64,000 nt of DNA from Lentisphaeraceae bacterium (GTDB lineage: Bacteria > Verrucomicrobiota > Kiritimatiellia > RFP12 > DVOR01). Below the pieces are notes generated by a model that was not told where the DNA came from, ran no database searches, and saw only the letters and a program-made list of their open reading frames with translations. The number at the start of each line of letters is the position of its first letter. The first letter of the stretch is position 1. The position numbers and the translations under genes are program-made. Below are positions 5,836-52,112 of the stretch, piece by piece. Where the stretch lies: contig SFJE01000003.1 in the NCBI GenBank assembly GCA_004555175.1, positions 1,914-65,913 of the forward strand, written 5' to 3'.

Positions 5836-7521
5836 ATGGCTTCCTCCCTCGCCCTTCCCCCGCTTGTCGAACTCGTCCGCGACAACGGCTTTATTGACGA
5901 CGCCCAGGCCGAAGAGCTCGTCCGCGCGCACCTCCAGGATGGCAAGCCCTACAAGGAGCTCATCCTGGCGCTCGACGTGCTCTCCGAAGAGGACCTCCTC
6001 TCCCTGATGGCCGGTAGCCAAGGGACCGACGTCATCGACCTCTCCACTGTCGCCTTCGACGACACGCTCAAAAATCTCATCCCGGTGGCCAGCATTCGCC
6101 TGCACACCATCGTCCCCGTTGAGGTTGAGCGCGACCACGCCACCTTCGCCACCGCCGACCTCATCGAGGCCGATGTCATCGACGAGCTCACCTTCCTCCT
6201 CTCGCGCGAAATCCGCTTCGTCTTCGCCCCCGAGGAGGCTATCAAGAAGGCGATTGACGACAACTTCTCCGCCGGCGAAGCCTCCGACGCGCTTATTGAG
6301 GACCTCTCGGACTTCGATGGCGTTGATGGTGCCACCGACGAGAAGGGCATCGAGAGCGCTGCCGCCTCGGCTCCAGTCATCCGCTTCGTCAACCTCGTCC
6401 TCTATCAGGCCATTACCGACCGCGCCTCCGATATTCACATCGAGCCCTTCGAGAAGGACTTTAAGATTCGCTACCGCGTCGACGGCGCGCTCTACGAAAT
6501 GAATCCGCCGCCGCTCTCGATGGCCCTGCCGATTATCTCGCGCATCAAGGTGCTCTCGGGGTTGAACATCGCCGAGCGCCGCGTGCCACAGGATGGCCGT
6601 ATTGCCCTCACCGTCGCCGGGCGCCAGGTCGACCTCCGTGTCTCCTGCCTGCCCACCGTCCACGGCGAATCTGTCGTGCTCCGCGTCCTCGACCGCTCGG
6701 CCGTCTCCCTCGATCTGGAGAATATCGGCCTGCCCGAGGACATCTACGACGGCATCACGATGGACATCGAGAAGCCCAACGGCATCTTCATCGTCACCGG
6801 CCCGACCGGCTCCGGTAAGACCACCACCCTCTACTCTTGCCTGCGCGCCATCAATAAGCCCGACACCAAGATCCTCACCGCCGAAGAGCCGGTGGAATAC
6901 GACATCGAGGGCCTGGTGCAGGTGCCCATCAATCCGCAGCAGGGCAACACCTTCGCCAAGGTGCTCCGCGCCTTCCTCCGTCAGGACCCCGATGTCATTA
7001 TGGTCGGCGAAATCCGCGACTTGGAGACCGCCGAAATCGCCGTCCAGGCCGCCCTCACCGGTCACTTCGTCTTCTCCACTCTGCACACCAACGACGCCGC
7101 CGGCGCCGTCACCCGCTTGGTGGATATGAATGTGGCCCCCTACCTCATCTCCTCCACCCTCCAGGCCGTCCTCGCCCAGCGCCTCGTCCGCACCTGCTGC
7201 GCCAACTGCAAGACCTTCTACGACCCCGATGACGAGGCCATCCACCGCCTCGGCCTCGTCCGCTCGGACATCGGCAACCGCCAGTTCGCCTACGGTAAGG
7301 GCTGCAAGATCTGCAACGCCACCGGCTACAAGGGTCGTAAGGGCGTCTTCGAGTTCCTGCGGATGAGCAACCCCATCCGCGAGATGATCAACGCCCGCGA
7401 GCCCACCCTCGTCATCCGCGAGAAGGCCCGCGAACTCGGTATGCGCACGATGCGCGAAGATGCCATCCGCAACGTCCTCGACGGCTACACCACCGTCGAC
7501 GAAGTCCTCCGCTACACCTAA
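5836..7521 (+). CDS. Second PilB/GspE-family secretion ATPase
   Basis: 561 aa. Walker A VTGPTGSGKTTTLY and a tetracysteine motif (CANCKTF...CKICNATGYKGRKG). It follows pilT directly. Confidence 0.8.
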   Translation: MASSLALPPLVELVRDNGFIDDAQAEELVRAHLQDGKPYKELILALDVLSEEDLLSLMAGSQGTDVIDLSTVAFDDTLKNLIPVASIRLHTIVPVEVERDHATFATADLIEADVIDELTFLLSREIRFVFAPEEAIKKAIDDNFSAGEASDALIEDLSDFDGVDGATDEKGIESAAASAPVIRFVNLVLYQAITDRASDIHIEPFEKDFKIRYRVDGALYEMNPPPLSMALPIISRIKVLSGLNIAERRVPQDGRIALTVAGRQVDLRVSCLPTVHGESVVLRVLDRSAVSLDLENIGLPEDIYDGITMDIEKPNGIFIVTGPTGSGKTTTLYSCLRAINKPDTKILTAEEPVEYDIEGLVQVPINPQQGNTFAKVLRAFLRQDPDVIMVGEIRDLETAEIAVQAALTGHFVFSTLHTNDAAGAVTRLVDMNVAPYLISSTLQAVLAQRLVRTCCANCKTFYDPDDEAIHRLGLVRSDIGNRQFAYGKGCKICNATGYKGRKGVFEFLRMSNPIREMINAREPTLVIREKARELGMRTMREDAIRNVLDGYTTVDEVLRYT

Positions 7522-7548
7522 GGCGCCCCGCAAGCCCTTTTCTTCACC

Positions 7549-7578
7549 GCAGGCCCTCCCAGGCCTGCGTGTTTTTTA
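7549..7578 (+). terminator. Rho-independent terminator after the pil ATPase operon
   Basis: GC hairpin GCAGGCCCTCCCAGGCCTGC followed by TTTTTT. Confidence 0.7.
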
Positions 7579-7685
7579 GGCGCCCCGGCGCTCAAAAACA
7601 CCACATCTGCCTCCTGCTCGTAATGCTCCATATCCCACACGATAACCTTTTGGAATACAAGTAGATTTCGTTCGAGCTCGAACTT

Positions 7686-7739
7686 ATCTCACGAAAATCC
7701 AAGGATGTTTTTGGCCTCATCTCACGAAAATCCAAGGAT
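7686..7739. repeat. 21-bp direct repeat ATCTCACGAAAATCCAAGGAT x2 (7686-7706, 7719-7739) in a lower-GC spacer
   Basis: Direct reading. Confidence 0.7.
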
Positions 7740-7800
7740 AAGCGTCCCGAAAACGCAGACAACGCTTCGCCCATTCTTGCCGAGGCCGTTGAAGCCGTTA

Positions 7801-7818
7801 CGCCTGAGACCGGGGTTA
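7801..7818. repeat. Left copy of the 18-bp direct repeat CGCCTGAGACCGGGGTTA (right copy at 9177-9194, overlapping the ileS stop)
   Basis: Identical 18-mers flank the AAA ATPase cassette. Confidence 0.75.
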
Positions 7819-7855
7819 GCGGCTTCGGAGGCTAAACCACTGTCGCCAGTCTTGC

Positions 7856-7918
7856 GAAGTTTACGGTGTACTGCAAACTTTCGCGGTTACGCGCAGAAGT
7901 TTGTGGTATACTGCAAAC
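7856..7918 (+). promoter_or_regulatory. Tandemly duplicated 23-bp promoter-like unit (GAAGTTTRYGGTRTACTGCAAAC x2) with extended -10 TGGTATACT upstream of the AAA ATPase gene
   Basis: Two near-identical units at 7856-7878 and 7896-7918. The second sits ~20 nt upstream of the RBS AAAGGAGGAG. Confidence 0.45.
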
Positions 7919-7937
7919 AAATTGAAAGGAGGAGCCT

Positions 7938-9131
7938 ATGGTTGAGCGTCCAGATGCGTTGCAACGGTTGCTTTCGTGGAAAGATAAGGACCTGATTAAG
8001 GTTGTCACCGGCATTCGGCGGTGCGGGAAATCGACCTTGTTCTCGTTGTTGCAGGGGCGGTTGCGGGAGATGGGGGTGGCGGATGATCAACTCCATGCTA
8101 TCAACTTTGAGGATCCTGACTGGGCGGAGTTGGACTCTTGGAAGCAGGTCTGGGACGCTCTTAAGCCGCAGATTGAGGATGGCCGTAGGCACTATGTCTT
8201 TCTGGACGAGGTTCAGCAGCTGCCGAACTTTGAGCGGCTCGTCAATGGGTTGTATACGCGCAAGCAAGTCGACCTCTACGTGACGGGCTCGAATGCCTTT
8301 CTGCTCTCGAGCGAGTTGGCGACCTATCTCTCTGGGCGCTATGTTGAACTGCACTTGACGCCGCTCTCGTTTAAGGAGTTTGCTTCCGTTGCGCCAGCGC
8401 AGGAGCCGAGGAGTCAGACTTATCGCCGTTATCTGGTGCAGAGCGGCTTCCCGTATGCGTTGCAACTGCGTGAACCCCAGCACCTTGATGACTACCTCCG
8501 TGGGCTGTTTAATACCATCTTGCTTAAGGATGTGGTGGCGCGTAATGGTTTCAAGGATGTGGCGCTGTTGGGGCGGGTGGTGCGTTTCCTCTTCGATAAC
8601 ATCGGCAACCTCACGACGATCAACAAGATTTGTACGGCCTTCGAGGAGGCGAAGTCGCGCCCCAATGCCCAGACCATTGAGAATTACATTCAGGCGCTGT
8701 GCGATGTCTACATCCTTCATCAGGTCCGCCGTTACGATATTAAGGGCAAGGCGTGGCTGAAGACGAACGCGAAGTATTACCTGGAAGATGTGGGACTTCG
8801 GCGCATCCTCCTAGGAACGCGCGGCGGTGACCTCGGGCGGTTGCTGGAGAATGTGGTTTACCTGGAGCTCTGCCGCCGCCATCGGGAGGTCTATGTGGGC
8901 ATTCTCGACCGCGAGGAGGTCGACTTCGTGGCCATCGATGGGGCGGAGTACACCTACTATCAGGTGGCCCTAACGGTCCGCGATGAGCAGACGCTACGTC
9001 GCGAACTCCGGCCGCTCCAGAAGCTCCCCGGCTCGTATCCTAAGTTCCTGCTTACGCTTGATGATGACCCGGAGCTCTCGCACGAGGGCATTCGCCAAGT
9101 GAATGCCCTCGACTTCCTCTTGCAAGCATAA
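7938..9131 (+). CDS. AAA+ ATPase (AAA_14 + DUF4143 family ATP-binding protein)
   Basis: Walker A GIRRCGKSTL, Walker B VFLDEVQ, and DUF4143-like C-terminal half. Strong RBS. The gene lies in a lower-GC segment. Confidence 0.75.
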   Translation: MVERPDALQRLLSWKDKDLIKVVTGIRRCGKSTLFSLLQGRLREMGVADDQLHAINFEDPDWAELDSWKQVWDALKPQIEDGRRHYVFLDEVQQLPNFERLVNGLYTRKQVDLYVTGSNAFLLSSELATYLSGRYVELHLTPLSFKEFASVAPAQEPRSQTYRRYLVQSGFPYALQLREPQHLDDYLRGLFNTILLKDVVARNGFKDVALLGRVVRFLFDNIGNLTTINKICTAFEEAKSRPNAQTIENYIQALCDVYILHQVRRYDIKGKAWLKTNAKYYLEDVGLRRILLGTRGGDLGRLLENVVYLELCRRHREVYVGILDREEVDFVAIDGAEYTYYQVALTVRDEQTLRRELRPLQKLPGSYPKFLLTLDDDPELSHEGIRQVNALDFLLQA

Positions 9132-9136
9132 CGAAC

Positions 9137-9172
9137 AAATCCGGCGCGGAGGATTATCCGCGCCGGATTTGT
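9137..9172. terminator. Bidirectional terminator hairpin (AAATCCGGCGCGGA..TCCGCGCCGGATTT) between the ATPase gene and ileS
   Basis: Perfect 14-bp stem flanked by A/T runs. Confidence 0.6.
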
Positions 9173-9176
9173 CTTC

Positions 9177-9194
9177 CGCCTGAGACCGGGGTTA
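9177..9194. repeat. Right copy of the 18-bp direct repeat CGCCTGAGACCGGGGTTA; its last three nt are the ileS stop codon (TAA on the minus strand)
   Basis: Direct reading. Confidence 0.75.
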
Positions 9195-12100
9195 CTTGGC
9201 CTCGATGAGGAGGCGGAGTTCGTGGCCGTTGAGGTCGATGGGGTCGGTTGTGAGTTCGCCGGGGAGGAGGGCGTCGCCTTGGACTTCCTCAAGGATGGTG
9301 TCTTGCCAGGCATCGAGGGCGGCGGCGACTTCGTCGTCGGCTTGGAAGGTGACTTCGATGCGCTGGGTGACTTCGAGGTCGGCTTCCTTGCGCAGGGCTT
9401 GGACGCGGGAGACGAACTCGCGCATCAGGCCTTCGGCGAGGAGGGCGGCGGTGAGGGCGGTTTCGAGGGCGACGACGATGTTGCCTTCGGCGGCGACGAC
9501 GAGGCCTTCGCGCGGTTCGCGGCGGATGACGACTTCGTCGGGGGCGAGGGTGGTTTCGGTGCCCTGGATGGTGAGGGGGACGGTTTCGCCGCGGGCAAGG
9601 GCGGCGGCGAGGGGGGCCGGGAGGGCGGCGATGGCGGCGGCGGCGGCCTTCATTTGGGCGCCGAAGCGGGGGCCAAGGCGCTTGAAGTCGGCCTTGAGGG
9701 AGAGGTTGGCGAGGGCGGTTTCGTCGTCGCCGAAGGAGATGTCCTTGACGTTGAGTTCTTCGCGGATGATGTCGGTGTAGGCGGCGAGGGCGGCGCGGGC
9801 AGCGGCATCGGCGGAGACGACGTGGAGGCGGGCGAGGGGCTGGCGGACCTTGAGGTCCTTATCGGTGCGCAGCTGGCGGCCGAGGCGGACAACGCGCTGG
9901 ACGAGCTCCATATCGGCTTCGAGGCGGAGGTCACGGGCGGCAGCATCGGCGGTGGGGAAGGCGCAGAGGTGAACGCTTTCGGGGTCGTTCGGGCCGCGGA
10001 GGTTGCGGTAGATTTGCTCGCTGACGAAGGGGCAGAAGGGGGCGGCAACCTTTGAGAGTTGGACGAGGACGTAGCGGAGGGTGCGGTAGGCGTGGCGCTT
10101 GTCGGCATCGTCTTCGCTCTTCCAGAAGCGGCGGCGGGAGCGGCGGATGTACCAGTTGGTGAGCGCGTCGATGAAGTCGACGAAGGGGCGGACGGCCTTC
10201 TGGAGGTCGTAGGCGTCCATAGCGGTGGAGACATCGGCGATGAGGGTTTCCATCGAGGAGACGATCCAGCGGTCGAGGACGTGGGGGGAGGTGGGGCGGG
10301 CGACATCGGGCTCGTCGAAGCCGTCGGCATTGGCGTAGGTGACGAAGAAGCTGTAGGCGTTCCACCAGGGGATGAGGAGGTCGCGCAAGAGTTGTTTGAC
10401 GCCGGCTTCGGAGAAGCGGAGGTTTTCGGCGCGGACAACGGGAGAGTTGATGAGGTAGAGGCGAAGGGCGTCGGCGCCGTAGGTGTCGATGACGTGCTTG
10501 GGGTCGGGGTAGTTTTTGAGGCGCTTGGACATCTTCTTGCCATCTTCGGCGAGGACGAGGCCGTTGACGACCACGTTCTTGTAGGGGGCCTTACCGAAGA
10601 GGAGGGTGCCGAGGACGAGGAGCGTGTAGAACCAGCCGCGGGTCTGGTCGAGGCCTTCGGCGATGAAGTCGGCGGGGAAGAAGGTGTCGAGCTCTTTGCC
10701 GGAGAAGGGGAAGTGTTGCTGGGCGTAGGGCATGGAGCCAGATTCGAACCAGCAGTCGAGGACCTCGGGGGTGCGGTGATAGGTGTGGCCGTCCTTACGG
10801 ATGACGACCTTGTCGATGATGTGCTTGTGGAGGTCGGTAATCTTCTGCCCGCTGAGGGCTTCGAGCTCGGCGACGGAGCCGACGCAGATGCGGTCTTCGG
10901 GATCGTCGTCGTTGATCCAGATGGGCAGGCACGAGCCCCAGAAGCGGTTGCGGGAGATGTTCCAGTCCTTCGCGTCGCGCAGCCAGTTGCCGAAGCGGTT
11001 GGCGCCGACGGCTTCGGGCTGCCAGTGGACGGTGGCGTTGTTGGCGGTGAGGCGCTCGTGGAGGTCTTCAACGCGGACGTACCAGGCGTCGATGGCGCGG
11101 TAGATGAGGGGCGTGTCGGTGCGGTCGCAGAAGGGATAGGCGTGGACGATGGTGCCTTGGTGGACGAGCTTGCCGTTTTGCTTGAGCTCGCGAATGATGT
11201 CCTTGTCGCAATCCTTGCAGAAGCGGCCGCGCCAGGCTTCGGGGGCGGGGGCGGTGAAGGCGCAGCCTTCGTCCATCGGGTCTTCGAGGGTGATGCCGGC
11301 GGCCGAGCAGACGCGGAAGTCGTCTTCACCGTAGGCCGGGGCATTGTGGACCAGGCCGGTGCCGTCGGTGGTGGTGACGTAGCTATCGGTGAGGACGACG
11401 AAGGCGTTGGGCTTGTCCTTGTAGTAGGGGAAGATGGGCTCGTAGTGGAGGCCCTTGAGCTCGGTGCCCTTGAGCTTTTCGAGGATCTCGACCTTGGGGT
11501 TCTTGCCGAAGACGGCGGTCAGGCGGCTCTCGGCGAGGATGTAGACGGCCCCATCGGCGTCCTTGACGGCGAGGTAGTCAATCTCCGGGCCGGCGCAGAT
11601 GGCGAAGTTGGTGAGCAGCGTCCAGGGGGTGGTGGTCCAAACGAGGAGGTAGGCCTCTTCGCCCCAAACGGGATGGGCGCCCTGGGTGATGCGGCAGCGG
11701 ACGGTGACGGCGGGGTCCTGCACGTCCTTGTAGTTGCTGCCGGCCTCGAAGTTGGAGAGGGGCGTGGAGAGCTTCCACGAATAGGGCATAATGCGGTGGC
11801 TCTTATAGATGCGCCCCTGGTCCCACAGCTGCTTGAAGACCCACCAGACCGACTCCATAAAGCTCGGCTGCATGGTCTTGTAGTCATTATCAAAGTCTAC
11901 CCAGCGGCCCATACGGGTGACCGTCTCGCGCCACTGCGAGACGTAGCGCAGCACCATTGCGCGGCACTGCTCGTTGAAGGCCTCCACCCCGTGCTGGCGG
12001 ATCTCGTAGGCGCCATTGACGCCCAGCGCTTCCTGCGCCAGGGCCTCGATGGGCAGCCCGTGGCAGTCCCACCCAAAGCGCCGCTCCACGTAGTGCCCGC

Positions 12101-12323
12101 GCATGGTCTGGTAGCGCGGCACAATGTCCTTAATCGTTCCGGCCAGGAGGTGCCCATAGTGCGGCAGACCGGTGGCGAAGGGCGGCCCATCGTAGAACCG
12201 GAAGACCGGCGCGCCGCGCCGCTGCTCGAGGCTCTTGGCAAAGGTGCCTTCGCTCTCCCAGAGCTTCAGCACGGCTTCTTCATTCTTGGCAAAGTCGGGA
12301 CGATTGGAAACGGGCTTAAACAT
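9192..12323 (-). CDS. ileS: Isoleucyl-tRNA synthetase (type 2, eukaryote/archaeal-like)
   Basis: 1043 aa. HYGH class I motif (GLPHYGHLL), KMSKR motif, and an IleS-type editing domain. Confidence 0.95.
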   Translation of the reverse strand: MFKPVSNRPDFAKNEEAVLKLWESEGTFAKSLEQRRGAPVFRFYDGPPFATGLPHYGHLLAGTIKDIVPRYQTMRGHYVERRFGWDCHGLPIEALAQEALGVNGAYEIRQHGVEAFNEQCRAMVLRYVSQWRETVTRMGRWVDFDNDYKTMQPSFMESVWWVFKQLWDQGRIYKSHRIMPYSWKLSTPLSNFEAGSNYKDVQDPAVTVRCRITQGAHPVWGEEAYLLVWTTTPWTLLTNFAICAGPEIDYLAVKDADGAVYILAESRLTAVFGKNPKVEILEKLKGTELKGLHYEPIFPYYKDKPNAFVVLTDSYVTTTDGTGLVHNAPAYGEDDFRVCSAAGITLEDPMDEGCAFTAPAPEAWRGRFCKDCDKDIIRELKQNGKLVHQGTIVHAYPFCDRTDTPLIYRAIDAWYVRVEDLHERLTANNATVHWQPEAVGANRFGNWLRDAKDWNISRNRFWGSCLPIWINDDDPEDRICVGSVAELEALSGQKITDLHKHIIDKVVIRKDGHTYHRTPEVLDCWFESGSMPYAQQHFPFSGKELDTFFPADFIAEGLDQTRGWFYTLLVLGTLLFGKAPYKNVVVNGLVLAEDGKKMSKRLKNYPDPKHVIDTYGADALRLYLINSPVVRAENLRFSEAGVKQLLRDLLIPWWNAYSFFVTYANADGFDEPDVARPTSPHVLDRWIVSSMETLIADVSTAMDAYDLQKAVRPFVDFIDALTNWYIRRSRRRFWKSEDDADKRHAYRTLRYVLVQLSKVAAPFCPFVSEQIYRNLRGPNDPESVHLCAFPTADAAARDLRLEADMELVQRVVRLGRQLRTDKDLKVRQPLARLHVVSADAAARAALAAYTDIIREELNVKDISFGDDETALANLSLKADFKRLGPRFGAQMKAAAAAIAALPAPLAAALARGETVPLTIQGTETTLAPDEVVIRREPREGLVVAAEGNIVVALETALTAALLAEGLMREFVSRVQALRKEADLEVTQRIEVTFQADDEVAAALDAWQDTILEEVQGDALLPGELTTDPIDLNGHELRLLIEAK

Positions 12324-12325
12324 AG

Positions 12326-12386
12326 GTGGATTAGCTGTTAGCGGTTAGCGGCTAGCTGTTAGCGCGCGTTCCGCGACGGATGGGGT
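12326..12386. repeat. Repeat arm: heptamer array TTAGCTGTTAGCGGTTAGCGGCTAGCTGTTAGCG plus reverse core CGCGTTCCGCGACGG (12365-12379)
   Basis: It is the inverted partner of 12797-12860 across the four-helix-bundle gene. Confidence 0.75.
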
Positions 12387-12752
12387 TTAAGGTTGGGAGT
12401 GGTCTATCTGTGCCTCGAATGCGTGTAGCATCTTGGCGACTTCTTCTGAAAGGGTAAGTACGGGTGCAATATCCGCCTTCGCCAGCAGTTGCACACGCTC
12501 GCAAATATAGAGATGAGTCTGGAGTTCGGCCAAAGAGCCCTGGGCAATCTTTAAGAAGTGCTTCAACTCGTTGTCACGCCGCCGGCCATAGCCTTCTGCA
12601 ATGTTTGCTGGCACCGACACGGCCGCACGGCGCATTTGATCGGCCAGCGCAAAGCGCTCCTCTCCCGGCATCTCCGGGAGGAGACGATAGACCGTCACCA
12701 CCAGGTCCATCGCCTTCTGCCACACCGTCAAATCTTGATAGCTCTTAATCAT
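12387..12752 (-). CDS. Four-helix-bundle protein (23S rRNA intervening-sequence protein family, TIGR02436-like)
   Basis: The translation MIKSYQDLTVWQKAMDL...IAEGYGR is the family hallmark. The ORF extends to 12785, but ATG 12752 is the family-typical start. Confidence 0.7.
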   Translation of the reverse strand: MIKSYQDLTVWQKAMDLVVTVYRLLPEMPGEERFALADQMRRAAVSVPANIAEGYGRRRDNELKHFLKIAQGSLAELQTHLYICERVQLLAKADIAPVLTLSEEVAKMLHAFEAQIDHSQP

Positions 12753-12796
12753 CGTTGCTTGGGCTCGCCGTTGCACGCGCTCCACGTGCTCGATCG

Positions 12797-12860
12797 AAAG
12801 CTTCTCCGTCGCGGAACGCGTGCTAATGGCTAACAGCTAACCGCTAACTGCTGTCGCAAC
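12797..12860. repeat. Repeat arm: core CCGTCGCGGAACGCG (12806-12820) plus heptamer array GCTAATGGCTAACAGCTAACCGCTAACTGCTGTCGC
   Basis: Direct reading. Confidence 0.75.
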
Positions 12861-12865
12861 GCGGC

Positions 12866-13321
12866 TCAGCCGCGGAGGGCGGCAAGGACGCCATCGCGGT
12901 CGGGGGCGGAGATGATGGCTTCGCGGGTGGTCGGATCCATCAGCTTGCGGCTGATGCTACCGAGGAAGACCATATAGCCTGAGCCGGCGGAGGGCGGAAC
13001 GAGCATCAAGATAACGACCTTGGTCGGCTCGCCATCGGGGGCATCGGCCGCGAAGCCATCCTTGTGCACGCCGATGGCGCAGACGAGCTCCTCGACCACA
13101 TCGGTGCGGCCGTGGGGGAGGGCGATTTCGTCGGTCATCACGGTTGAGGCGGACATCTCGCGGCGGACGATGGCCTGCTTGGCTTCGTCCTTCTTGGCCT
13201 CGGGGAGGGCACCGCTAGCGACGAGCGCGTCCATCAGCTCGGCGATGACGCCAAAGATGTCTTCGCTACGCAGCGAGGTGACGACCACGGCCTTTTCCAA
13301 CATCGTGTCATAGGTGTTCAT
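12866..13321 (-). CDS. ptsN: PTS EIIA(Ntr)-like nitrogen regulatory protein (PTS_EIIA_2 domain)
   Basis: 151 aa. The EIIA fructose/mannitol-type fold signature includes an active-site His context (IALPHGR). Confidence 0.7.
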   Translation of the reverse strand: MNTYDTMLEKAVVVTSLRSEDIFGVIAELMDALVASGALPEAKKDEAKQAIVRREMSASTVMTDEIALPHGRTDVVEELVCAIGVHKDGFAADAPDGEPTKVVILMLVPPSAGSGYMVFLGSISRKLMDPTTREAIISAPDRDGVLAALRG

Positions 13322-13345
13322 AGTGCAACCTTTCGTTCAGAGTGT

Positions 13346-14314
13346 TCACATATAGGCGATACGCAACGCTTCGTTCTCCAACGTATCGCGTTCGATTAGC
13401 GCGTCAAGGGCCCGGCCGATGGGCCCGGGCTTGCCGTCGCCGACCTTGCGGCCATTGTATTCCACCACGGAGGCGACATTGAGGGTGGTGCCAACAGCGA
13501 GGATTTCGTGCGCTTCGTAGAGCTCTTCCTCGCGAATCGGGCGGAAGACCACGCCCTTGAGCGACCCTTCGCTCTCCAGCTTCTGGGCCAGTTCCGAGAC
13601 GCGCAACATCGTCGTGCCGGCCAGGACGGTATCTAGCGGCGGGAAGACGAGGCGGCCCTTCTTGGAGACGATGCCGATATTCTCGGTGGCGCTTTCGGTG
13701 ATGTGGCCATGGGGGTCCACGCCCACCATAAAGTCCACGTGCCAAATCTCGGCTTCACCCTTCATCAGCACATTGGGAATGTAGTTACAGGTCTTGGCAG
13801 TGGCGAAGACCGGCGGCTTGATGGGCACGCGGCTCTTACGCAGTTTAGCGCCCTCGGGGTGGCGCTTCATAAAGGGTTCGCCCCCGCCATAGACCAAGAT
13901 GTAGAGGGCCGAACCCTCGCTTTCGGTGGGCGAGACACCCATCCCGCCCGGACCGCGACTGAGCACCACGCGCACTGCGCAATTCGGCTGTGCGGCCACC
14001 TCCAGTGCCTCGAGCACCTTGGCCCGCAACGCTTCGGGCCCGCGCCGAAACGCGAGCCCGACCTGGTAGGCACTCCGCTGCAACCGCTGCAAATGCGCAT
14101 CGAGATTGTAAACCGCGCCATTGAGGCACTTCATCGTCTCGAAGACGCCATCACCGCGGTGCGTCAGGTGGTCATCAAAGGGGATGACCATCAGCGCCGG
14201 ATCGCGCACATAGCCATCCCACAGGCTCGAATAGAACAGGTGGTAAGGCGTACGCTTCGAGCCCGTCGCCGCTCGCAACGTCTCGACAAAGTCCTGGGGA
14301 CCAATCTCTCTCAT
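13346..14314 (-). CDS. Class IV PLP-dependent aminotransferase (branched-chain amino acid aminotransferase / ADC lyase family)
   Basis: Fold-type IV motifs (EAF..GT...V...G). The ORF opens at a GTG at 14332. ATG 14314 (MREIG..) is preferred. Confidence 0.75.
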   Translation of the reverse strand: MREIGPQDFVETLRAATGSKRTPYHLFYSSLWDGYVRDPALMVIPFDDHLTHRGDGVFETMKCLNGAVYNLDAHLQRLQRSAYQVGLAFRRGPEALRAKVLEALEVAAQPNCAVRVVLSRGPGGMGVSPTESEGSALYILVYGGGEPFMKRHPEGAKLRKSRVPIKPPVFATAKTCNYIPNVLMKGEAEIWHVDFMVGVDPHGHITESATENIGIVSKKGRLVFPPLDTVLAGTTMLRVSELAQKLESEGSLKGVVFRPIREEELYEAHEILAVGTTLNVASVVEYNGRKVGDGKPGPIGRALDALIERDTLENEALRIAYM

Positions 14315-14369
14315 ACCTATAAGATAACACACCCGCGCGGCCGCCGCAAGCGCACCGCCGGAGCCTCCT

Positions 14370-15839
14370 TTACGCGGAGGCCCCGCCGCCCTCCTTCATC
14401 TGCGGGAAGAGGAGCACATCGCGAATGGCCTCGGTGCCAGTGAGGAACATCACCAAACGGTCGATGCCCATCCCGAGCCCCCCGGTGGGCGGCATGCCAT
14501 ATTCCAACGCCTCAACGAAGTCCTGGTCGAGCGGCTCGGCATCGGCCTCCACCTGGCGGGCAAAGGCTTCGCGCTGCGCATCGGGGTTGTTCTGCTCGGT
14601 GTACCCGGGGCAGAGCTCGCGCCCGGCCACCACGAACTCGAAGACATCCACCAGCGCCGGATCATCCGAACACGCCTTGGCCAGGGGCACATACTGCTTG
14701 GGAATGCGCGTGACGAAGGTCGGCTGCATCAGGGTGCGCTCGATAAGCTTATCGTAGACCTCGTGCGAGAGGGTGAGCATATCGACAATCTCGGGGGTGA
14801 GCGTGAGTCCCTGCGCGACGGCGCGGGCCTTGGCGGTCTCGTAGTCGAGCGTGAACCAATCCTCGCCCATCCGCTCTTTGATAAGGTCCTGCTGGGCCAC
14901 CTCGCGGTAAGGCGGCTCGAAGTTGATAACGGTCTTCTCCTCGCCCGAGCCGTAGGCCACCTGGCGCGTGCCCAGGACCGTGTCGCAGAGATAAGGCAAC
15001 AGCCCCTCCACGAGGTTCTTCATCGAGGTGCGGTCGCCATAGGCCTCGTAGACCTCCAGCACGGTGAACTCGGGGTTGTGCGTGCGGTCGATCCCCTCGT
15101 TGCGGAAATCCTTGCCCAGCTCGAAGATCTTGTCGAAGCCGCCGACGAGCAGGCGCTTGAGGTAGAGCTCCGGAGCGATACGCAGGACCATCTCGCGGTC
15201 GAGCGCGTTGTGATGCGTCACGAAGGGCTTGGCCGCGGCACCGCCGGCCTGCGGCTGCATAATCGGCGTCTCCACCTCCACGAAGCCGCGCGAGGAGAGG
15301 AAGTTGCGAATGCCGAGCAAAATCTTGTGGCGGGCATCAAAGCGCTTGCGGCTCTCGGGGTTGGACATCAAATCCAGGTAACGCTTGCGGTAGCGGTCCT
15401 CGGTGTTCTGCAGACCGTGCCACTTCTCGGGCGGTTGGCGAATGGCCTTGGAGAGCAGCTCCCACTCGGCCACGGCCACGGTCTGCTCGCCGGCCTGGGT
15501 GGTAAAGAGCGTGCCCTTGGCGCCAATAATGTCACCCAAATCCAAGAGCTTGGCCGCGTTGTAGGCCTCCTCGCCCACCTCATCGCGCTTGAGCAAAATC
15601 TGGAAGGCATCCGAGCCATCATTCAGGTGGATGAACATCAGCTTGCCCATCCGCCGCTTGGTCTGAATACGCCCGGCCACGGCCACAGCCTTGCCCTCGG
15701 CAAAGTCCGCGCGCGTCTCCTGCAGCGTGCCGGTCCGCGCAAAAGCGTGACCATAGGGCGCGTAGCCCGCGGCCTCCAACTTCGCGCGGTTCTCAATCCG
15801 CTGCGCCCGATACTGATCTTCGCTCAATGCCTGCGCCAT
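14370..15839 (-). CDS. lysS: Lysyl-tRNA synthetase, class II
   Basis: 489 aa. OB-fold N-terminal domain and class II motifs 1-3 (e.g. FRNEG, GGLGMGIDRL). Confidence 0.95.
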   Translation of the reverse strand: MAQALSEDQYRAQRIENRAKLEAAGYAPYGHAFARTGTLQETRADFAEGKAVAVAGRIQTKRRMGKLMFIHLNDGSDAFQILLKRDEVGEEAYNAAKLLDLGDIIGAKGTLFTTQAGEQTVAVAEWELLSKAIRQPPEKWHGLQNTEDRYRKRYLDLMSNPESRKRFDARHKILLGIRNFLSSRGFVEVETPIMQPQAGGAAAKPFVTHHNALDREMVLRIAPELYLKRLLVGGFDKIFELGKDFRNEGIDRTHNPEFTVLEVYEAYGDRTSMKNLVEGLLPYLCDTVLGTRQVAYGSGEEKTVINFEPPYREVAQQDLIKERMGEDWFTLDYETAKARAVAQGLTLTPEIVDMLTLSHEVYDKLIERTLMQPTFVTRIPKQYVPLAKACSDDPALVDVFEFVVAGRELCPGYTEQNNPDAQREAFARQVEADAEPLDQDFVEALEYGMPPTGGLGMGIDRLVMFLTGTEAIRDVLLFPQMKEGGGASA

Positions 15840-15852
15840 CGCTGCGCCTCCC

Positions 15853-17850
15853 TTACGCCAAATAGTTGTTGACCAGTTCAGTCAGGTGTTCAACCGTGAA
15901 GCCAAAGTGCTTGGCCAACACGCCAGCCGGACCCGACGCGCCAAAGCCCTTCATTGTCAGCGAGATGCCTTCGCAGCCCAGATAGCGCTCCCAGCCGAAG
16001 GGCGAAGCCGCCTCCACCGCGATGCGCTTGGTGACCGCCTTGGGCAACACCGCCTCGCGGTACTCCGCGCTCTGCGCCTCGAAGAGATCCCAGCTCGGCA
16101 TCGAAACCACGCGCAGGTTGCGCGTATCGGCCTGTGCCACCTCCAGCGCCAAGGCAACCTCCGAGCCCGAGGCCATCAAAATCGCCTCCGGTTGCTGCTC
16201 GGGGTCCCGTTGCCAGAGGACGTAGGCGCCCTTGGCCACATTCGCCGCCGCCGGATAGTCGCTGCGGTCCAGCACCGGCAAGTTCTGGCGCGAGAGCAAA
16301 AGCGCCGTCGGCCCCGTCGTCCGCCGCAACGCCACCTCCCACGCCGCCGCCGTCTCCGTGGCATCGGCCGGACGCAGCACGCAGACGTTCGGCATCGCAC
16401 GCATCGCCGGCAACTGCTCAATCGGCTCGTGCGTGGGGCCATCTTCGCCCACATAGAAGCTATCGTGCGTGAGCACGTAAATCACCGGCAGCCCCATCAA
16501 CGCCGCCACACGGATGACCGGGCGGCAGTAGTCGCAGAAGACAAAGAAGGTGCCGCCAAAGCAACGCAAACCGCCGTGACTGGTCAGGCCATTCATCACC
16601 GCCGCCATCCCCAGCTCGCGCACGCCAAAGTGGAAGTTCCGCCCGCCGAAACGCTTGGGCCCCACATCGCCGAGCCCATGCAGATAGGTCATATTCGAGG
16701 GCGCCAAGTCCGCCGAGCCACCCACCAACCACGGCAAGGACGGGGCAAGCGCATTCAGCACCTTCCCCGAAGCCACGCGCGTAGAAATCGGCTTATCCTC
16801 CCACGCCGGCAACAACTTTGCAAAGTTCTTCGGCAACTCCTGCGCGTGCATCGCCTCCCAGACGCGCTTCACCCGCGGATGCGCCTCGAAGTGCTTACGC
16901 ACCTGACGCTCCCAGCGCCGCCGCATACGCCCCATCTGCGCCTGGCGCGCGGCGAACTTCTCGCGCACCGCATCGCTCACCGCAAAGGTCTCATCCGGGT
17001 TGAAGCCGAGGGCCTCCTTCATCAAGCGCACCTCCTCTTCGCCGAGCGGCGCACCGTGACAGGAGGCGCTATCGGCCTTATTCGGCGAGCCCTTTCCAAT
17101 CACCGTGTTGCAAATCACCAACACCGGCTTAGACTGCGAACGCATCGCGCGGTGGAGCGCGCGCGCAATACTGTCAAAGTTGTGCCCATCGCAGGTACAA
17201 ACCTGCCAACCGTAGGCGCGGAAGCGGTTGGCCGTGTCATCTGCCATCGCATCGGCCACATCGCCCTCAATCGAGATCCGGTTCGAGTCGTAAATCGCCA
17301 CCAACTTATTCAGCCCCAACGTGCCGGCCAGCGAAGCGGCCTCGTGCGAAATCCCCTCCTCCATATCCCCGTCCCCGCAGGTCACCCACGTGCGGTGATC
17401 GACCAGCTTCATCTCCGGCGTATTGAAGCGCTCGGCCATCATCCGCTCGGCAATCGCCATTCCCACCGCCGCGCCAAGCCCCTGCCCCAGCGGGCCGGTC
17501 GTCGTCTCCACCCCAGGCACCACGCCATACTCCGGGTGCCCCGGCGTCTTGCTCCCCAGCTGACGAAAATGCTTCAAATCCTCCAGCGACAGGTCATACC
17601 CCGCCAAGTGCTCCAAGGCATAGAGGAGCGACGACCCGTGCCCGCCGGACATGACAAAGCGATCCCGATCCGCCCACGTCGGTGCCGCCCCATCCACCTT
17701 CAGAAAGTAAAGCCAAAGCACCGCCATTACATCCGCCAGGCTCAACGCCACACCCGGATGCCCGGACTTCGCCGCCTGCACCTCGTCTGCCGCCAGACAA
17801 CGCAACGTATTCGCAACCAACTGCAAGGCCTTCTGCCGCTTCTGTTCCAT
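15853..17850 (-). CDS. tkt: Transketolase
   Basis: TPP-binding motif (SGHPG, GDGDMEEG) and the transketolase central and C-terminal domains. ATG 17850 (MEQKRQ..) is the preferred start within the ORF that opens at 17901. Confidence 0.95.
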   Translation of the reverse strand: MEQKRQKALQLVANTLRCLAADEVQAAKSGHPGVALSLADVMAVLWLYFLKVDGAAPTWADRDRFVMSGGHGSSLLYALEHLAGYDLSLEDLKHFRQLGSKTPGHPEYGVVPGVETTTGPLGQGLGAAVGMAIAERMMAERFNTPEMKLVDHRTWVTCGDGDMEEGISHEAASLAGTLGLNKLVAIYDSNRISIEGDVADAMADDTANRFRAYGWQVCTCDGHNFDSIARALHRAMRSQSKPVLVICNTVIGKGSPNKADSASCHGAPLGEEEVRLMKEALGFNPDETFAVSDAVREKFAARQAQMGRMRRRWERQVRKHFEAHPRVKRVWEAMHAQELPKNFAKLLPAWEDKPISTRVASGKVLNALAPSLPWLVGGSADLAPSNMTYLHGLGDVGPKRFGGRNFHFGVRELGMAAVMNGLTSHGGLRCFGGTFFVFCDYCRPVIRVAALMGLPVIYVLTHDSFYVGEDGPTHEPIEQLPAMRAMPNVCVLRPADATETAAAWEVALRRTTGPTALLLSRQNLPVLDRSDYPAAANVAKGAYVLWQRDPEQQPEAILMASGSEVALALEVAQADTRNLRVVSMPSWDLFEAQSAEYREAVLPKAVTKRIAVEAASPFGWERYLGCEGISLTMKGFGASGPAGVLAKHFGFTVEHLTELVNNYLA

Positions 17851-17924
17851 CGCCGTGATAACCTCTTCTAAGGGGCTCAAAAGAAAATAAAAGGATAGCA
17901 CATCCCCCTAAACCCCGCAACTCG

Positions 17925-18110
17925 CGTTCGGCCATTCGCGCGCTGGGCCGGATAATCCGGATAATCCGGAAATTCCGGATCATCTGGAGATTCCGGAGGC
18001 GGCCCGCCAATGGGGGGCAGGGGGCAAGGCCCCCCGCGTGAGCGCGCGAGCGAGGGCGCCGAGCGAAGCGAAGGCGCTATGCCAACACGATGGCGGTTCC
18101 GCCGCCGTAA
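17925..18110. repeat. Composite repeat: nonamer array (CCGGATAAT/CCGGAGATT), conserved block GGAGGCGGCCCGCCAATGGGGGRCAGGG, and module GAGCGAAGCGAAGGCGCTATGCCAA
   Basis: Closely matches 34680-34940 (the same modules rearranged). Confidence 0.7.
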
Positions 18111-18142
18111 GGTGTACCTCCGGCGCGTGAGGAGGCCCCTCG

Positions 18143-18188
18143 GGGATGTTATAGAGAAACAGAAGGCCCCCGAAGATCATCGGGGGCC
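18143..18188 (-). terminator. Rho-independent terminator of the large exported protein gene
   Basis: Hairpin GGCCCCCGAAGATCATCGGGGGCC followed on the minus strand by a U-rich run (TTCTGTTTCTCT). Confidence 0.7.
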
Positions 18189-18224
18189 GATCCGTCGCGC
18201 GCTAATCGCTAACCGCTACCAACG

Positions 18225-21524: not shown

Positions 21525-21639
21525 GCATGCTCCTTCTGCTTACGTCATATAGTGTAGCACACCCACGCCCAAAAGCAAACGCCTTTGACAATTCTAGGGT
21601 TTGCAATTTCAATCGCACCACGATGGCATTGCCTCTCGC

Positions 21640-28318: not shown

Positions 28319-28344
28319 ACGCGCTCCTTTCCTGTCTTTGGCGG

Positions 28345-28374
28345 AAGTATAGCAAAGTCTAACGAACAATATCA
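28345..28374 (-). promoter_or_regulatory. Canonical sigma70 promoter (TTGATA, 18-bp spacer, TATACT) in an AT-rich stretch driving the PF01637 ATPase gene
   Basis: Read on the minus strand: TTGATATTGTTCGTTAGACTTTGCTATACT. Confidence 0.5.
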
Positions 28375-28530
28375 AGAAATAAGAAAAACGCGCCACTCAG
28401 CCACGATGTGCCGCCAATCGATCAAAGTGCTCGCTAAACACATAGACACGCTAGCACTTCACGAATCCCCTCCCGTGATTAAAACACCTTATGCCCCCTC
28501 GCCCCTTTTGGGCCGTGGCGGCTCCCTTTT

Positions 28531-45936: not shown

Positions 45937-46092
45937 AGCAGACAGCCCGCGTTCCGCGACGGGCAGATGTTTCCTCCCAATTATGTGCTTCTCACGGCTC
46001 AGACGGGCCTTCCACCTTAAGCGCCAGCACGATGGCATAGCTCCTTCGCTAACGCTACGGACTTGTCAGCTGTCGGCTGTCAGCTGTTGGCT
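45937..46092. repeat. Composite repeat: reverse core CGCGTTCCGCGACGG (45948-45962), spacer, module CGATGGCATAGCTCCTTCGCTAACGCTACGGACTTG (inverted copy of 51965-52000), and heptamers TCAGCTGTCGGCTGTCAGCTGTTGGCT
   Basis: Direct reading. It overlaps the first 15 codons of the annotated decarboxylase ORF. Confidence 0.7.
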
Positions 46093-46107
46093 ATCATCTC
46101 CTCCCCT

Positions 46108-51929: not shown

Positions 51930-52112
51930 GCGTTATAGCCGACAGCGGACAGCCGACAGCGGACAAGTCCGTAGCGTTAGCGAAGGAGCTATGCCATCGA
52001 GCTGGCGCTCGATGTGGAAGGCCCGTCTGAGCCGTGAAGGGCACTCTTGCCAAGCCAACAGCCCCTCCGTCGCGGAACGCGGCTGTCCGCTGTCCGCTGT
52101 CGGCTGTCCGCT
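51930..52112. repeat. Composite repeat: heptamers GCCGACAGCGGACAGCCGACAGCGGACAAG, module GTAGCGTTAGCGAAGGAGCTATGCCATCG, spacer, core (52067-52081), heptamers GCTGTCCGCTGTCCGCTGTCGGCTGTCCGC
   Basis: Direct reading. It lies immediately upstream (5') of the NERD-helicase gene. Confidence 0.75.

What the first reader, a model, noticed from the sequence alone, without database searches (positions are those of the whole stretch)
7579..9196. Lower-GC AAA+ ATPase (DUF4143) cassette inserted at the ileS 3' end with an 18-bp direct duplication that includes the ileS stop codon
- The 18-mer CGCCTGAGACCGGGGTTA occurs at 7801-7818 and 9177-9194. The right copy ends in the ileS stop codon.
- The interval between them contains a duplicated extended -10 promoter unit, a strong SD, the ATPase gene and a perfect bidirectional terminator hairpin.
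- The interval is visibly AT-richer than the flanks and contains two 21-bp direct repeats.
- An 18-bp duplication at the end of an essential gene is what site-specific (att-type) integration produces, yet no integrase is present.
Basis: seen in the sequence. Interest (0 to 1): 0.55.

Follow-up and report, generated by a model that had tools for sequence, protein, structure and literature searches.

The report
Defence-gene cassette in a variable hotspot
The lower-GC ATPase next to ileS is a candidate anti-phage gene (PADLOC family PDC-S01) in a short intergenic stretch that differs between strains of one gut bacterium, and the 18-base repeat is most likely the leftover of a duplicated ileS terminator region rather than the footprint of an integrase-driven element.

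Summary
The exact 18-mer occurs only at 7801-7818 and 9177-9194. The ATPase (AAA_14+DUF4143), promoter repeats, hairpin and GC dip are all present.

The organism is a gut Kiritimatiellae, Candidatus Spyradenecus. The ATPase matches PADLOC candidate defence family PDC-S01 over its full length (E 3e-147).

Strains with 100% identical PilB protein carry at least seven versions of the PilB-ileS gap:
- empty
- this ATPase
- an internally deleted copy of this ATPase plus a GmrSD restriction gene
- this ATPase intact plus a GmrSD gene
- a second PDC-S01 ATPase
- both ATPases
- relics of a PEP-CTERM gene and an AAA_16 gene.

The empty allele keeps the hairpin and the right 18-mer. It lacks exactly the left 18-mer through the ATPase stop codon. 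That does not fit excision between the repeats.

In a sister lineage the cassette is flanked by two diverged copies of a roughly 70-nt hairpin-plus-18-mer unit. In the window the left copy is cut down to the 18-mer by a microhomology junction (TTACGCC) with the AAA_16 relic.

No integrase is seen in any allele or within about 10 kb.

Verdict: an ordinary, well-documented strain-variable defence hotspot and a new member of a known kind. How the terminator unit first became duplicated is unresolved.

The parts
5836..7521 (+). PilB-type T2SSE ATPase gene, the conserved left anchor of the hotspot
   Evidence: Pfam T2SSE E 4.8e-135. The identical 561-aa protein is followed by at least seven different downstream arrangements in public contigs.
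7548..7579 (+). PilB intrinsic terminator: hairpin followed by a T run
   Evidence: Terminator scan. Conserved in all alleles.
7596..7769 (.). Segment L. It is shared by most alleles and is the upstream region of a second, minus-strand PDC-S01 ATPase (ATP2). ATP2 is present in L101 and L112 but absent here. L contains the 33-nt tandem repeats at 7683-7748.
   Evidence: ATP2 is inserted at window position 7595 in L101 and L112, with L immediately upstream of its start codon. Repeat copy number is 2 here and 3 in L087, L095, L101 and L112.
7752..7808 (+). 19-codon relic of an AAA_16 ATPase gene (NADNASPILAEAVEAVTPE). It spans the end of L, all of the 31-nt segment X (7770-7800) and the first 8 nt of the left 18-mer.
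   Evidence: 16 of 19 residues match residues 307-325 of the gene at 27137-28396(-). The DNA match is 24 of 26 over 27426-27451.
7801..7818 (+). Left 18-mer (R'). It copies the ileS stop codon plus the 15 nt after it. It is interpreted as the remnant of a duplicated terminator unit.
   Evidence: Exact repeat. Present in L087, L095 and L116 with 1-2 differences; absent from L112 and from the empty alleles. Its counterpart in L114 is part of a full hairpin unit.
7819..7855 (+). 37-nt spacer of unknown origin between R' and the promoter units
   Evidence: Found only in alleles that carry R'. Its similarity to the ileS 3' coding end is not significant (p 0.3-0.8).
7856..7937 (+). Cassette promoter region: two 23-nt imperfectly palindromic units (7856-7878, 7896-7918), extended -10 TGgTATACT (7904-7912) and Shine-Dalgarno AGGAGG (7927-7932)
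   Evidence: The proximal unit is conserved upstream of 70%-identical homologues in low-GC genomes and in L112, L114 and L115. Operator-like palindromes are enriched upstream of 77 distant homologues. The generic sigma-70 scan found no -35/-10 pair here.
7938..9131 (+). ATP1: PDC-S01-type P-loop ATPase (AAA_14 + DUF4143), 397 aa
   Evidence: Pfam. PADLOC PDLC04787 E 3e-147, profile positions 10-408 of 412. AlphaFold2 model with mean pLDDT 89.5. Best solved-structure fold matches are 2qen, Orc1/Cdc6 and STAND NTPases. dN/dS 0.06-0.09 in three comparisons and 0.31 against L116.
9135..9172 (.). Hairpin H, a bidirectional terminator shared by ATP1 and ileS. It is native to the ileS 3' region because the empty alleles have it too.
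   Evidence: Perfect 16-bp stem. Terminator scan. Present in the empty alleles L086, L096, L101 and L102.
9177..9194 (+). Right 18-mer (R): the native 15 nt downstream of ileS plus the stop codon (9192-9194)
   Evidence: Present in the empty alleles in variant forms (CGCCTGTTGGCCGGGGTTA, CGCCTGAGGCCGGGGTTA).
9192..12323 (-). ileS (isoleucyl-tRNA synthetase with DUF5915 C-terminal domain), the conserved right anchor
   Evidence: Pfam tRNA-synt_1 E 2.1e-152 and DUF5915 E 2.7e-50.

Best explanation
The gap between the convergent core genes pilB and ileS in Candidatus Spyradenecus is a strain-variable hotspot where small defence-type genes are gained, swapped and eroded.

**The cassette.** The window carries one allele. 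It is a self-contained unit made of its own operator-bearing promoter, a Shine-Dalgarno site and a PDC-S01 ATPase. It uses the ileS hairpin as its terminator.

**The protein.** It is an Orc1/Cdc6- or STAND-like P-loop NTPase fused to a PD-(D/E)XK-like C-terminal domain. It is listed as a candidate single-gene anti-phage system, but that activity is untested.

**The 18-mer (inferred).** The left copy is what remains of a second copy of the ileS terminator unit (hairpin, T-tract, 15 nt and stop codon). That duplication arose when the cassette was placed between an older terminator unit and the ileS stop codon. In the window's lineage the left hairpin, and whatever lay before it, were later removed by short-homology deletions. 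That left the 18-mer fused to a relic of an AAA_16 gene.

**Turnover (inferred).** Alleles then move between strains by homologous recombination in the conserved flanks. Deletions create the empty and truncated forms.

**What is shown and what is inferred.** Shown: the allele series, the junction sequences, the family assignment and the discordant divergence. Inferred: the order of events, the way the unit was first duplicated, and the defence function.
For: **Allele series, all with identical PilB protein**
- Empty: L086/L097, L096, L102.
- ATP1: window, L116, L087.
- Internally deleted ATP1 plus GmrSD: L095.
- ATP2 only: L101.
- ATP2 plus ATP1: L112.
- PEP-CTERM gene, ATP1 and GmrSD-DUF4268: L114/L115.

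**Defence content**
- ATP1 and ATP2 match PDC-S01 at E 3e-147 and 1.6e-128. The GmrSD genes match type IV restriction models.
- PDC-S01 is described as an untested candidate with an ATPase fused to a PD-(D/E)XK domain, and as very common (PMC12988326, PMC13356809, bioRxiv 10.1101/2024.01.29.577857).

**Junctions**
- L087 differs from the empty L086 by a 1331-bp segment that runs from the first base of R' to 1 nt past the ATPase stop. Hairpin and R are common to both.
- The X|R' junction overlaps the AAA_16 relic by TTACGCC.
- F_L is a PEP-CTERM gene relic ending VPEPTALARLALRRKHAA*.

**Duplicated unit**
- In L114 the cassette is flanked by the T3 unit and the H2-R unit. These align over 68 nt with score 36 against a shuffle mean of 14.2 (sd 2.3; none of 2000 shuffles reached it).

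**Divergence**
- Window against L112: dS is 0.63 for ATP1 but 0.19 for PilB and 0.14 for ileS.
- Window against L087 and L116: ATP1 is less diverged than the flanks (1.0-1.1% against 2.2-2.6%; Fisher p 0.03 and 0.001).
- dN/dS is 0.06-0.09 in three comparisons and 0.31 against L116, so the gene is under purifying selection while moving independently of its flanks.

**Other**
- The promoter/operator is conserved with the gene in unrelated genomes.
- GC3 is 0.72 against 0.87-0.88.
Against: - An intermediate with an intact left hairpin was found only in the 96% sister lineage (L114), not among the 98% strains.
- Two different left junctions (F_L|R' in L087, X|R' in the window) end at the same base of R'. 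The right edge of the duplication coincides with the ileS stop codon. These coincidences would come more naturally from a site-specific process.
- In the window both copies carry the same private variant (AGA), whereas other strains have AGG or TTGG. This implies some sequence exchange between copies only 18-21 nt long, which ordinary homologous recombination does poorly.
- Whether the empty allele is ancestral or a deletion product is not settled.
- The defence function of PDC-S01 has never been tested. ATP1's clade has Q-V-A where the nuclease motif (D/E)-x-K is expected.
- All sequences are metagenome contigs or MAGs.
Confidence: 0.6

Rival explanations
1. The cassette is an integrase-less integrative element, comparable to a cis-mobilisable element (CIME). 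On this reading a circle (18-mer, spacer, promoter, ATPase, hairpin) integrates at the 18-mer core at the ileS stop codon. A recombinase encoded elsewhere in the genome, or since lost, does the work, and the two 18-mers are attL and attR.
For: - An exact 18-bp direct repeat that includes the stop codon of an essential gene.
- The structure L-X-R'-cassette-H-R is formally what a circle integrating at R would give.
- Both copies share a private variant in the window, which suggests interaction between them.
- Two independent left contexts abut R' at the same base.
- GmrSD modules are also found directly against the ileS stop codon.
- ATP1 is younger than its flanks among the 98% strains.
Against: - No integrase in any of the allele types, nor among the genes called about 8 kb left and 13 kb right.
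- The observed empty alleles retain the hairpin and are not the product expected from recombination between the 18-mers. No such product was seen.
- The left edge of R' in the window is a microhomology junction with a gene relic, not an element end.
- L112 has the cassette at the same site without R'.
- L114 shows that the duplicated unit is about 70 nt and old.
- The 18-mer has no other copy in the sequence held.
- Homologous cassettes elsewhere lack flanking repeats.
Confidence: 0.15
2. The ATPase is an old resident gene of this locus, not an insertion. On this reading the empty alleles are simple deletions, and the 18-mer identity reflects a functional constraint or gene conversion between two related terminator flanks.
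For: - The same order (promoter, ATP1, hairpin, R-like sequence, ileS) occurs in the 96% sister lineage with an 87%-identical gene and diverged repeat units.
- The PEP-CTERM then ATP1 order is shared by L087 (as a relic) and L114/L115.
Against: - None of 80 other Kiritimatiellae-type genomes has the ATPase next to ileS. In L003 and L014 pilB and ileS are co-directional, so the junction itself is lineage-specific.
- dS of ATP1 between lineages is 3-4.5 times that of the flanks, and within the 98% strains it is lower than the flanks. The gene's history therefore differs from that of its neighbours.
- GC3 and the promoter type match foreign low-GC homologues.
Confidence: 0.15
3. The PDC-S01 protein moves its own gene. 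On this reading it acts like a homing endonuclease, which would explain insertions cut tightly to the gene and the family's very high copy number.
For: - ATP2 is present or absent with boundaries at its start and stop codons.
- ATP1's right boundary lies 1 nt after its stop codon.
- The family carries a PD-(D/E)XK-type domain (PMC3424549).
- The family is among the most abundant 'defence' loci.
Against: - ATP1's clade lacks the canonical catalytic lysine.
- No target-site logic is evident.
- The GmrSD modules show the same kind of turnover without this protein being responsible.
- Boundaries tight to flanking essential genes are expected from selection alone.
Confidence: 0.05

Closest known systems
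PDC-S01, a PADLOC single-gene 'phage defence candidate' (AAA_14 + DUF4143; COG1373-type ATPases)
   Same: - Full-length match to model PDLC04787 (E 3e-147).
- Same two Pfam domains.
- Solitary gene with its own promoter.
- Neighbours at the same locus include GmrSD restriction genes and a second PDC-S01 gene.
   Different: - The family's anti-phage activity is untested.
- ATP1's subclade has Q-V-A in place of the (D/E)-x-K nuclease motif, whereas ATP2 has the canonical E-V-K.
Defence hotspots or islets flanked by conserved core genes (established concept from pan-genome studies; stated from my own knowledge)
   Same: - Conserved flanks (PilB 100% identical in protein, ileS about 98% in DNA).
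- Different defence-type cargo in different strains, together with empty alleles and gene relics.
- Cargo divergence decoupled from flank divergence.
   Different: - Very small: 0.5-3.7 kb in the alleles measured in full, holding one or two genes.
- Lies between two convergent genes that share a terminator.
- No mobile-element genes at all.
Integrase-less att-flanked elements at the 3' end of housekeeping genes, such as CIMEs at fda in Streptococcus thermophilus (from my own knowledge)
   Same: - A short direct repeat that includes the 3' end of an essential gene.
- No recombinase inside the interval.
   Different: - The empty site does not equal one repeat with the flanks joined.
- The left repeat is a truncated remnant.
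- No cognate integrative element or integrase was found.
Tn7-like homing just downstream of an essential gene (attTn7 at glmS) (from my own knowledge)
   Same: Cargo is placed immediately after the stop codon of a conserved essential gene without disrupting it.
   Different: - No transposase genes and no terminal inverted repeats.
- The duplication is 18 to about 70 nt, not 5 bp.
Orc1/Cdc6 and STAND NTPases, including Avs-type antiviral STAND proteins and the archaeal ATPase 2qen
   Same: Predicted fold of residues about 1-295: P-loop domain, helical domain and winged-helix-like region. Foldseek E-values are 1e-7 to 2e-4 with probability 1.0.
   Different: - TM-scores are only 0.3-0.5 and sequence identity 10-15%.
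- No sequence-level match to any solved structure.
- ATP1 is a much shorter protein than Avs or NLR proteins and has no sensor repeats.

Membership tests
PDC-S01 (PADLOC candidate defence system) | Protein matches a PDC-S01 profile HMM over its full length | tested here: met
   PDLC04787 E 3e-147, 488.8 bits, residues 1-396 on profile positions 10-408 of 412.
PDC-S01 (PADLOC candidate defence system) | Domain architecture: N-terminal AAA_14 P-loop ATPase followed by DUF4143 | tested here: met
   PF13173 at residues 19-148 (E 5.7e-32) and PF13635 at residues 197-343 (E 9.7e-16). Walker A GIRRCGKS and Walker B FLDE are invariant in 40 homologues.
PDC-S01 (PADLOC candidate defence system) | Protects against phage | not testable with these tools
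   The literature lists it as an untested candidate.
PD-(D/E)XK nuclease superfamily (C-terminal domain) | Catalytic signature: D, then (D/E)-x-K | tested here: inconclusive
   E327-V-D329-F is conserved, but the expected (D/E)-x-K position reads Q342-V-A344, with Q342 invariant in the clade. ATP2 in L101 has E-V-D and E-V-K. DUF4143 is assigned to the superfamily in PMC3424549.
Core-gene-flanked defence hotspot | Same conserved flanking genes with different gene content between them in closely related strains, including empty sites | tested here: met
   At least seven arrangements behind an identical PilB protein. Flanks are 96-98% identical in DNA.
Core-gene-flanked defence hotspot | Cargo is enriched in defence genes | tested here: met
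   Two PDC-S01 clades and two GmrSD variants. Non-defence relics (PEP-CTERM, AAA_16) are also present.
Site-specific integrative element (att-type) | Encodes or is accompanied by an integrase or recombinase | tested here: not met
   None in the interval in any allele, and none among the genes called about 8 kb left and 13 kb right of it. The rest of the genome was not examined.
Site-specific integrative element (att-type) | Direct repeats (attL, attR) at both ends of the element | tested here: inconclusive
   The 18-mer repeat exists. However, the presence/absence boundaries against the empty allele are R' on the left and the ATPase stop on the right, not R. L112 lacks the left copy.
Site-specific integrative element (att-type) | Empty site equals the flanks joined through a single copy of the repeat | tested here: not met
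   Empty alleles read F_L - hairpin - R - ileS. No allele of the form X (or F_L) - R - ileS without a hairpin was found.
Site-specific integrative element (att-type) | Circular excised form | not testable with these tools
   Raw reads are not available here. The short contigs L083 and L084 are linear pieces of the integrated form.
Transposon or insertion sequence | Transposase, terminal inverted repeats and a short fixed-length target duplication | tested here: not met
   The only ORF with support is the ATPase. No inverted repeats lie at the boundaries.

The most novel reading that the evidence does not exclude
The stop codon and terminator of ileS may act as a dedicated capture site. On this reading, defence cassettes are stacked one after another, each arriving with its own copy of the terminator unit. 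The process would be integrase-independent or supplied in trans, and would act on the hairpin-plus-18-mer unit. That would explain four things: two different left junctions ending at the same base of the 18-mer; a duplication ending exactly at the stop codon; the shared private variant in both copies in the window; and the GmrSD modules lying directly against ileS.
Probability: 0.12. Interest if true: 0.6.

Novelty: new member of a known kind. Interest (0 to 1): 0.3.

Why it matters
PDC-S01 is reported as one of the most abundant candidate defence loci in prokaryotes, yet nobody has tested it, and how such single genes spread is unclear.

This locus gives a clean natural series in one gut species. 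It holds empty, filled, truncated and stacked alleles, with junctions resolved to the base. The series suggests that the unit that moves is a promoter with its operator plus the gene. It also shows that the gene's history is decoupled from that of its flanks, and that short-homology deletions and borrowed terminators shape the site.

That is useful material for people studying defence-gene turnover. It does not reveal a new kind of system.

Tried and rejected
- **Chance repeat.** Rejected.
- **Genome-wide motif or att site used elsewhere.** No other copy in the window or in any of the 116 loci then held.
- **Dispersed palindrome family.** The hairpin core GGCGCGGA..TCCGCGCC occurs once in the window, so it is not a REP-like family.
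- **Relic of the ileS coding end after R'.** The sequence after the left 18-mer is not significantly similar to the ileS 3' end (p 0.3-0.8).
- **Fused ileS relic at the end of L114 GmrSD.** The similarity looked suggestive (p 0.005). It was rejected because Pfam DUF4268 runs to residue 851 of 855, so the tail is native.
- **Known RNA or tRNA target.** No Rfam family above threshold and no tRNA near the site.
- **Solved homologue by sequence.** None.
- **Flanking repeats as a general property of PDC-S01 cassettes.** Not seen in L088 or L090.
- **JGI metagenome scan for the ileS 3' end.** Zero hits, so no extra alleles from that source.
- **Look-up from the ileS side with the PTS-EIIA protein.** It returned only contigs too short to reach the junction.
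- **Cluster member P0126.** It proved to be an unrelated ABC-transporter fragment.
- **dif/Xer-type site.** Considered from memory only. The 18-mer has weak dyad symmetry and no resemblance to dif. Not pursued.

Full report
**1. The observation**

The 18-mer CGCCTGAGACCGGGGTTA occurs exactly twice in the window, at 7801-7818 and 9177-9194. No other match appears even with three mismatches allowed, against 0.07 expected. With one mismatch the repeat is 21 nt long. The right copy ends in the complement of the ileS stop codon; ileS runs 9192-12323 on the minus strand.

- Two 23-nt promoter-like units lie at 7856-7878 and 7896-7918. The second carries TGgTATACT.
- AGGAGG lies 5 nt before the ATG.
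- A 397-aa protein with AAA_14 and DUF4143 is encoded at 7938-9131.
- A perfect 16-bp hairpin lies at 9135-9172.

GC falls to 0.51-0.57 against 0.62-0.72 in the flanks. GC3 of the ATPase is 0.72 against 0.87-0.88 for PilB and ileS.

**2. Organism and wider context**

The closest ileS genes among 185,579 species genomes are from gut Kiritimatiellae MAGs, at 84% protein identity or less. None of 80 relatives has the ATPase next to ileS. NCBI names members of the ATPase's 90% cluster as Candidatus Spyradenecus sp..

In relatives L003 and L014, pilB and ileS point the same way. In this lineage they converge, so the junction is itself a rearrangement point. More distant strains have other genes after pilB.

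**3. The allele series**

Exact-protein look-ups returned contigs that are 96-98% identical in the flanks but differ between pilB and ileS.

Notation, on the window's plus strand:
- L: the shared left segment, up to 7769.
- X: 7770-7800.
- F_L: a segment of about 190 bp.
- R' and R: the two 18-mer copies.
- P: the promoter units.
- H: the hairpin.

The alleles:

| Allele | Loci | Arrangement |
|---|---|---|
| A | L086/L097, L096, L102 | L - F_L - H - R - ileS (no ATPase) |
| B | L087 | L - F_L - R' - spacer - P - ATP1 - H - R |
| C | window, L116 | L - X - R' - spacer - P - ATP1 - H - R |
| D | L095 | as C, but ATP1 has an internal deletion and a 712-aa GmrSD gene lies against ileS |
| E | L101 | a second ATPase (ATP2) on the minus strand, inserted at 7595, then as A |
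| F | L112 | ATP2, L, the first ~25 nt of F_L, P, ATP1 (87% identical in DNA), a related hairpin H2 and a diverged R. No R' |
| G | L114/L115 | intact PEP-CTERM gene, hairpin T3, spacer, P, ATP1 (87%), H2, R-like sequence, 855-aa GmrSD-DUF4268, another terminator, ileS |

Sample ERZ27309524 holds both an A contig and a short C contig, so the two states coexist.

**4. What the boundaries say**

Compared with A, the insert in B is 1331 bp. It starts at the first base of R' and ends one base after the ATPase stop codon. H and R are present in both alleles. Relatives L002-L004 also have their own hairpin about 20 nt after ileS. H and R are therefore the native ileS 3' region. Recombination between R' and R would leave no hairpin, and no such allele was found.

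In the window, 7752-7808 encodes NADNASPILAEAVEAVTPE. Sixteen of these 19 residues match residues 307-325 of the AAA_16 ATPase gene at 27137-28396. That relic runs across the L|X boundary and overlaps R' by TTACGCC. The left edge of R' in the window is therefore a short-homology junction with an unrelated gene fragment.

F_L ends in VPEPTALARLALRRKHAA*, a decayed PEP-CTERM signal. The intact gene is in L115.

**5. The duplication is larger and older than 18 bp**

In G, the unit after the PEP-CTERM gene (T3 and its right flank) and the unit after ATP1 (H2 and the R-like sequence) align over 68 nt. The score is 36 against a shuffle mean of 14.2 (sd 2.3), and none of 2000 shuffles reached it. Against random 79-mers of the same locus, p is 0.004. 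The T3 unit also aligns colinearly with the H-R unit of the empty allele.

The cassette is therefore bracketed by two copies of a hairpin-plus-R unit. In B and C only the R' part of the left copy survives, and F has none.

The copies are not always identical. In L087, R' reads ..AGG.. and R reads ..TTGG... In L116 they differ at about five positions. The empty alleles L096 and L102 carry the ..AGG.. form as R. The window alone has ..AGA.. in both copies. This points to some exchange between the two copies in the window's lineage. I cannot explain it mechanistically.

**6. History of the gene against its flanks**

| Comparison | ATP1 | Flanks |
|---|---|---|
| Window vs L112 (dS) | 0.63 | PilB 0.19, ileS 0.14 |
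| Window vs L087 (DNA difference) | 1.1% | 2.2% (Fisher p 0.03) |
| Window vs L116 (DNA difference) | 1.0% | 2.6% (Fisher p 0.001) |

dN/dS for ATP1 is 0.06-0.09 in three of the four comparisons and 0.31 against L116. The gene is functional and has moved independently of its neighbours. It coalesces more deeply than they do between lineages and more recently within the 98% group.

**7. What the gene is**

- ATP1 matches PADLOC PDC-S01 over its whole length (E 3e-147). ATP2 matches another PDC-S01 model (E 1.6e-128). The GmrSD genes match type IV restriction models.
- PDC systems were proposed by 'guilt by embedding' and are untested (bioRxiv 10.1101/2024.01.29.577857).
- PDC-S01 is reported as the fourth most common defence locus and as an ATPase fused to a PD-(D/E)XK domain (PMC12988326). 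It is the most frequent single locus in rumen genomes (PMC13356809). DUF4143 is listed in the PD-(D/E)XK survey (PMC3424549).
- An AlphaFold2 model has mean pLDDT 89.5. It resembles the archaeal ATPase 2qen, Orc1/Cdc6 and STAND NTPases. No solved structure matches by sequence.
- Walker A and B motifs are invariant. The expected (D/E)-x-K of the C-terminal domain reads Q-V-A in this clade, whereas ATP2 has E-V-K.

**8. The promoter travels with the gene**

The proximal unit AAGTTTGTGGTATACTGCAAAC is an imperfect palindrome over an extended -10. It recurs as AATTTATGATATACTGTAAA and AATTTATGATATACTATAAA upstream of 70%-identical homologues in low-GC genomes.

Among 77 homologues at 40-51% identity, operator-like matches occur in 19% of upstream regions against 1.7% of background windows. 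Many show other palindromes at the same place. This suggests autoregulation, which is an inference.

**9. Interpretation**

The best-supported reading is a small strain-variable defence hotspot between two convergent core genes. The window's allele is a PDC-S01 cassette that borrows the ileS terminator.

The 18-mer is a truncated remnant of a second terminator unit. That unit was duplicated when the cassette came to lie between an older terminator unit and the ileS stop codon. Later short-homology deletions removed the left hairpin and neighbouring genes. I give this 0.6.

The att-type reading keeps about 0.15, for three reasons:
- Two left junctions end at the same base.
- The duplication ends at the stop codon.
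- The two copies share a private variant.

It fails three defining tests here: no integrase, the wrong empty site, and a left repeat that is a deletion junction.

An old resident gene with simple deletions gets 0.15. Self-homing by the ATPase gets 0.05.

**10. Limits**

- All sequences are metagenome contigs or MAGs.
- Only part of the genome was seen, so a recombinase acting from elsewhere cannot be excluded.
- The order of events is inferred from eight or so alleles.
- The defence function is untested.

Noticed in passing
window 12387-12752 (-): A 121-aa 23S_rRNA_IVP / bAvd-like four-helix-bundle gene lies between the PTS-EIIA gene and ileS. It is present in some strains and absent in others (L086, L104, L105, L110, L111). 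L108 carries a 119-aa variant. This is a second small presence/absence site 3 kb from the first.
   Followed up: partly
window 7683-7748: A 33-nt tandem unit (CTTATCTCACGAAAATCCAAGGAT plus 9 nt) has 2 copies here and 3 in L087, L095, L101 and L112. Where the second ATPase (ATP2) exists, the unit lies 100-190 nt upstream of it, so here it may be an orphaned regulatory region.
   Followed up: partly
window 7752-7808 (+) and 27137-28396 (-): A 19-codon relic is 16 of 19 residues identical to residues 307-325 of an intact 419-aa AAA_16 ATPase gene 20 kb away. A paralogue of that gene probably once occupied the hotspot.
   Followed up: partly
window ~7595; L101 6496-7810, L112 4357-5682: A second, distantly related PDC-S01 ATPase (canonical E-V-K motif) is present or absent with boundaries at its own start and stop codons. 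The stop codon overlaps native sequence (GCGCTCAA).
   Followed up: partly
L095 7489-9627 and L114 1547-4114: Two different GmrSD type IV restriction genes (712 aa, and 855 aa with a DUF4268 tail) lie directly against the ileS stop codon in other strains. Each comes with a different terminator for ileS. In L095 the neighbouring ATP1 carries a 931-bp internal deletion.
   Followed up: partly
window 7938-9131 (residues 327-344): In this ATPase clade the position of the PD-(D/E)XK (D/E)-x-K motif reads Q-V-A, with Q342 invariant in 40 homologues. The C-terminal domain may not be a conventional nuclease.
   Followed up: partly
L117-L196, 120 nt upstream of the ATPase genes: Distant PDC-S01 homologues carry palindromes of varied sequence at or just before their promoters (TTTTGCA-N5-TGCAAAA, TTGGAA..TTCCAA, TAGGA..TCCTA). 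This would fit gene-specific operators and autoregulation.
   Followed up: partly
window 51937-52112 (-), 45937-46095 (+), ~1378-1520; L095/L096/L102 ~490-690: A dispersed MITE-like repeat of about 180 bp. Its arms are runs of GACAGC[CG] heptads around a conserved core. The copy between the two chromate-transporter genes differs between strains.
   Followed up: no
window 7522 (PilB 3' end); L003, L014, L094, L098-L100: The 3' end of pilB is a synteny breakpoint. Relatives have pilB and ileS co-directional, or FGE-sulfatase or IMPDH genes after pilB. Relative to L094, the block from ileS to the FGE-sulfatase gene (9192-21579) looks inverted.
   Followed up: partly
window 55376-55497 (-) and 62963-63405 (+): An FMN riboswitch, and a cluster of five tRNA genes (Pro, Leu, Glu, Glu, Ser). 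Both are ordinary and unrelated to the finding.
   Followed up: no
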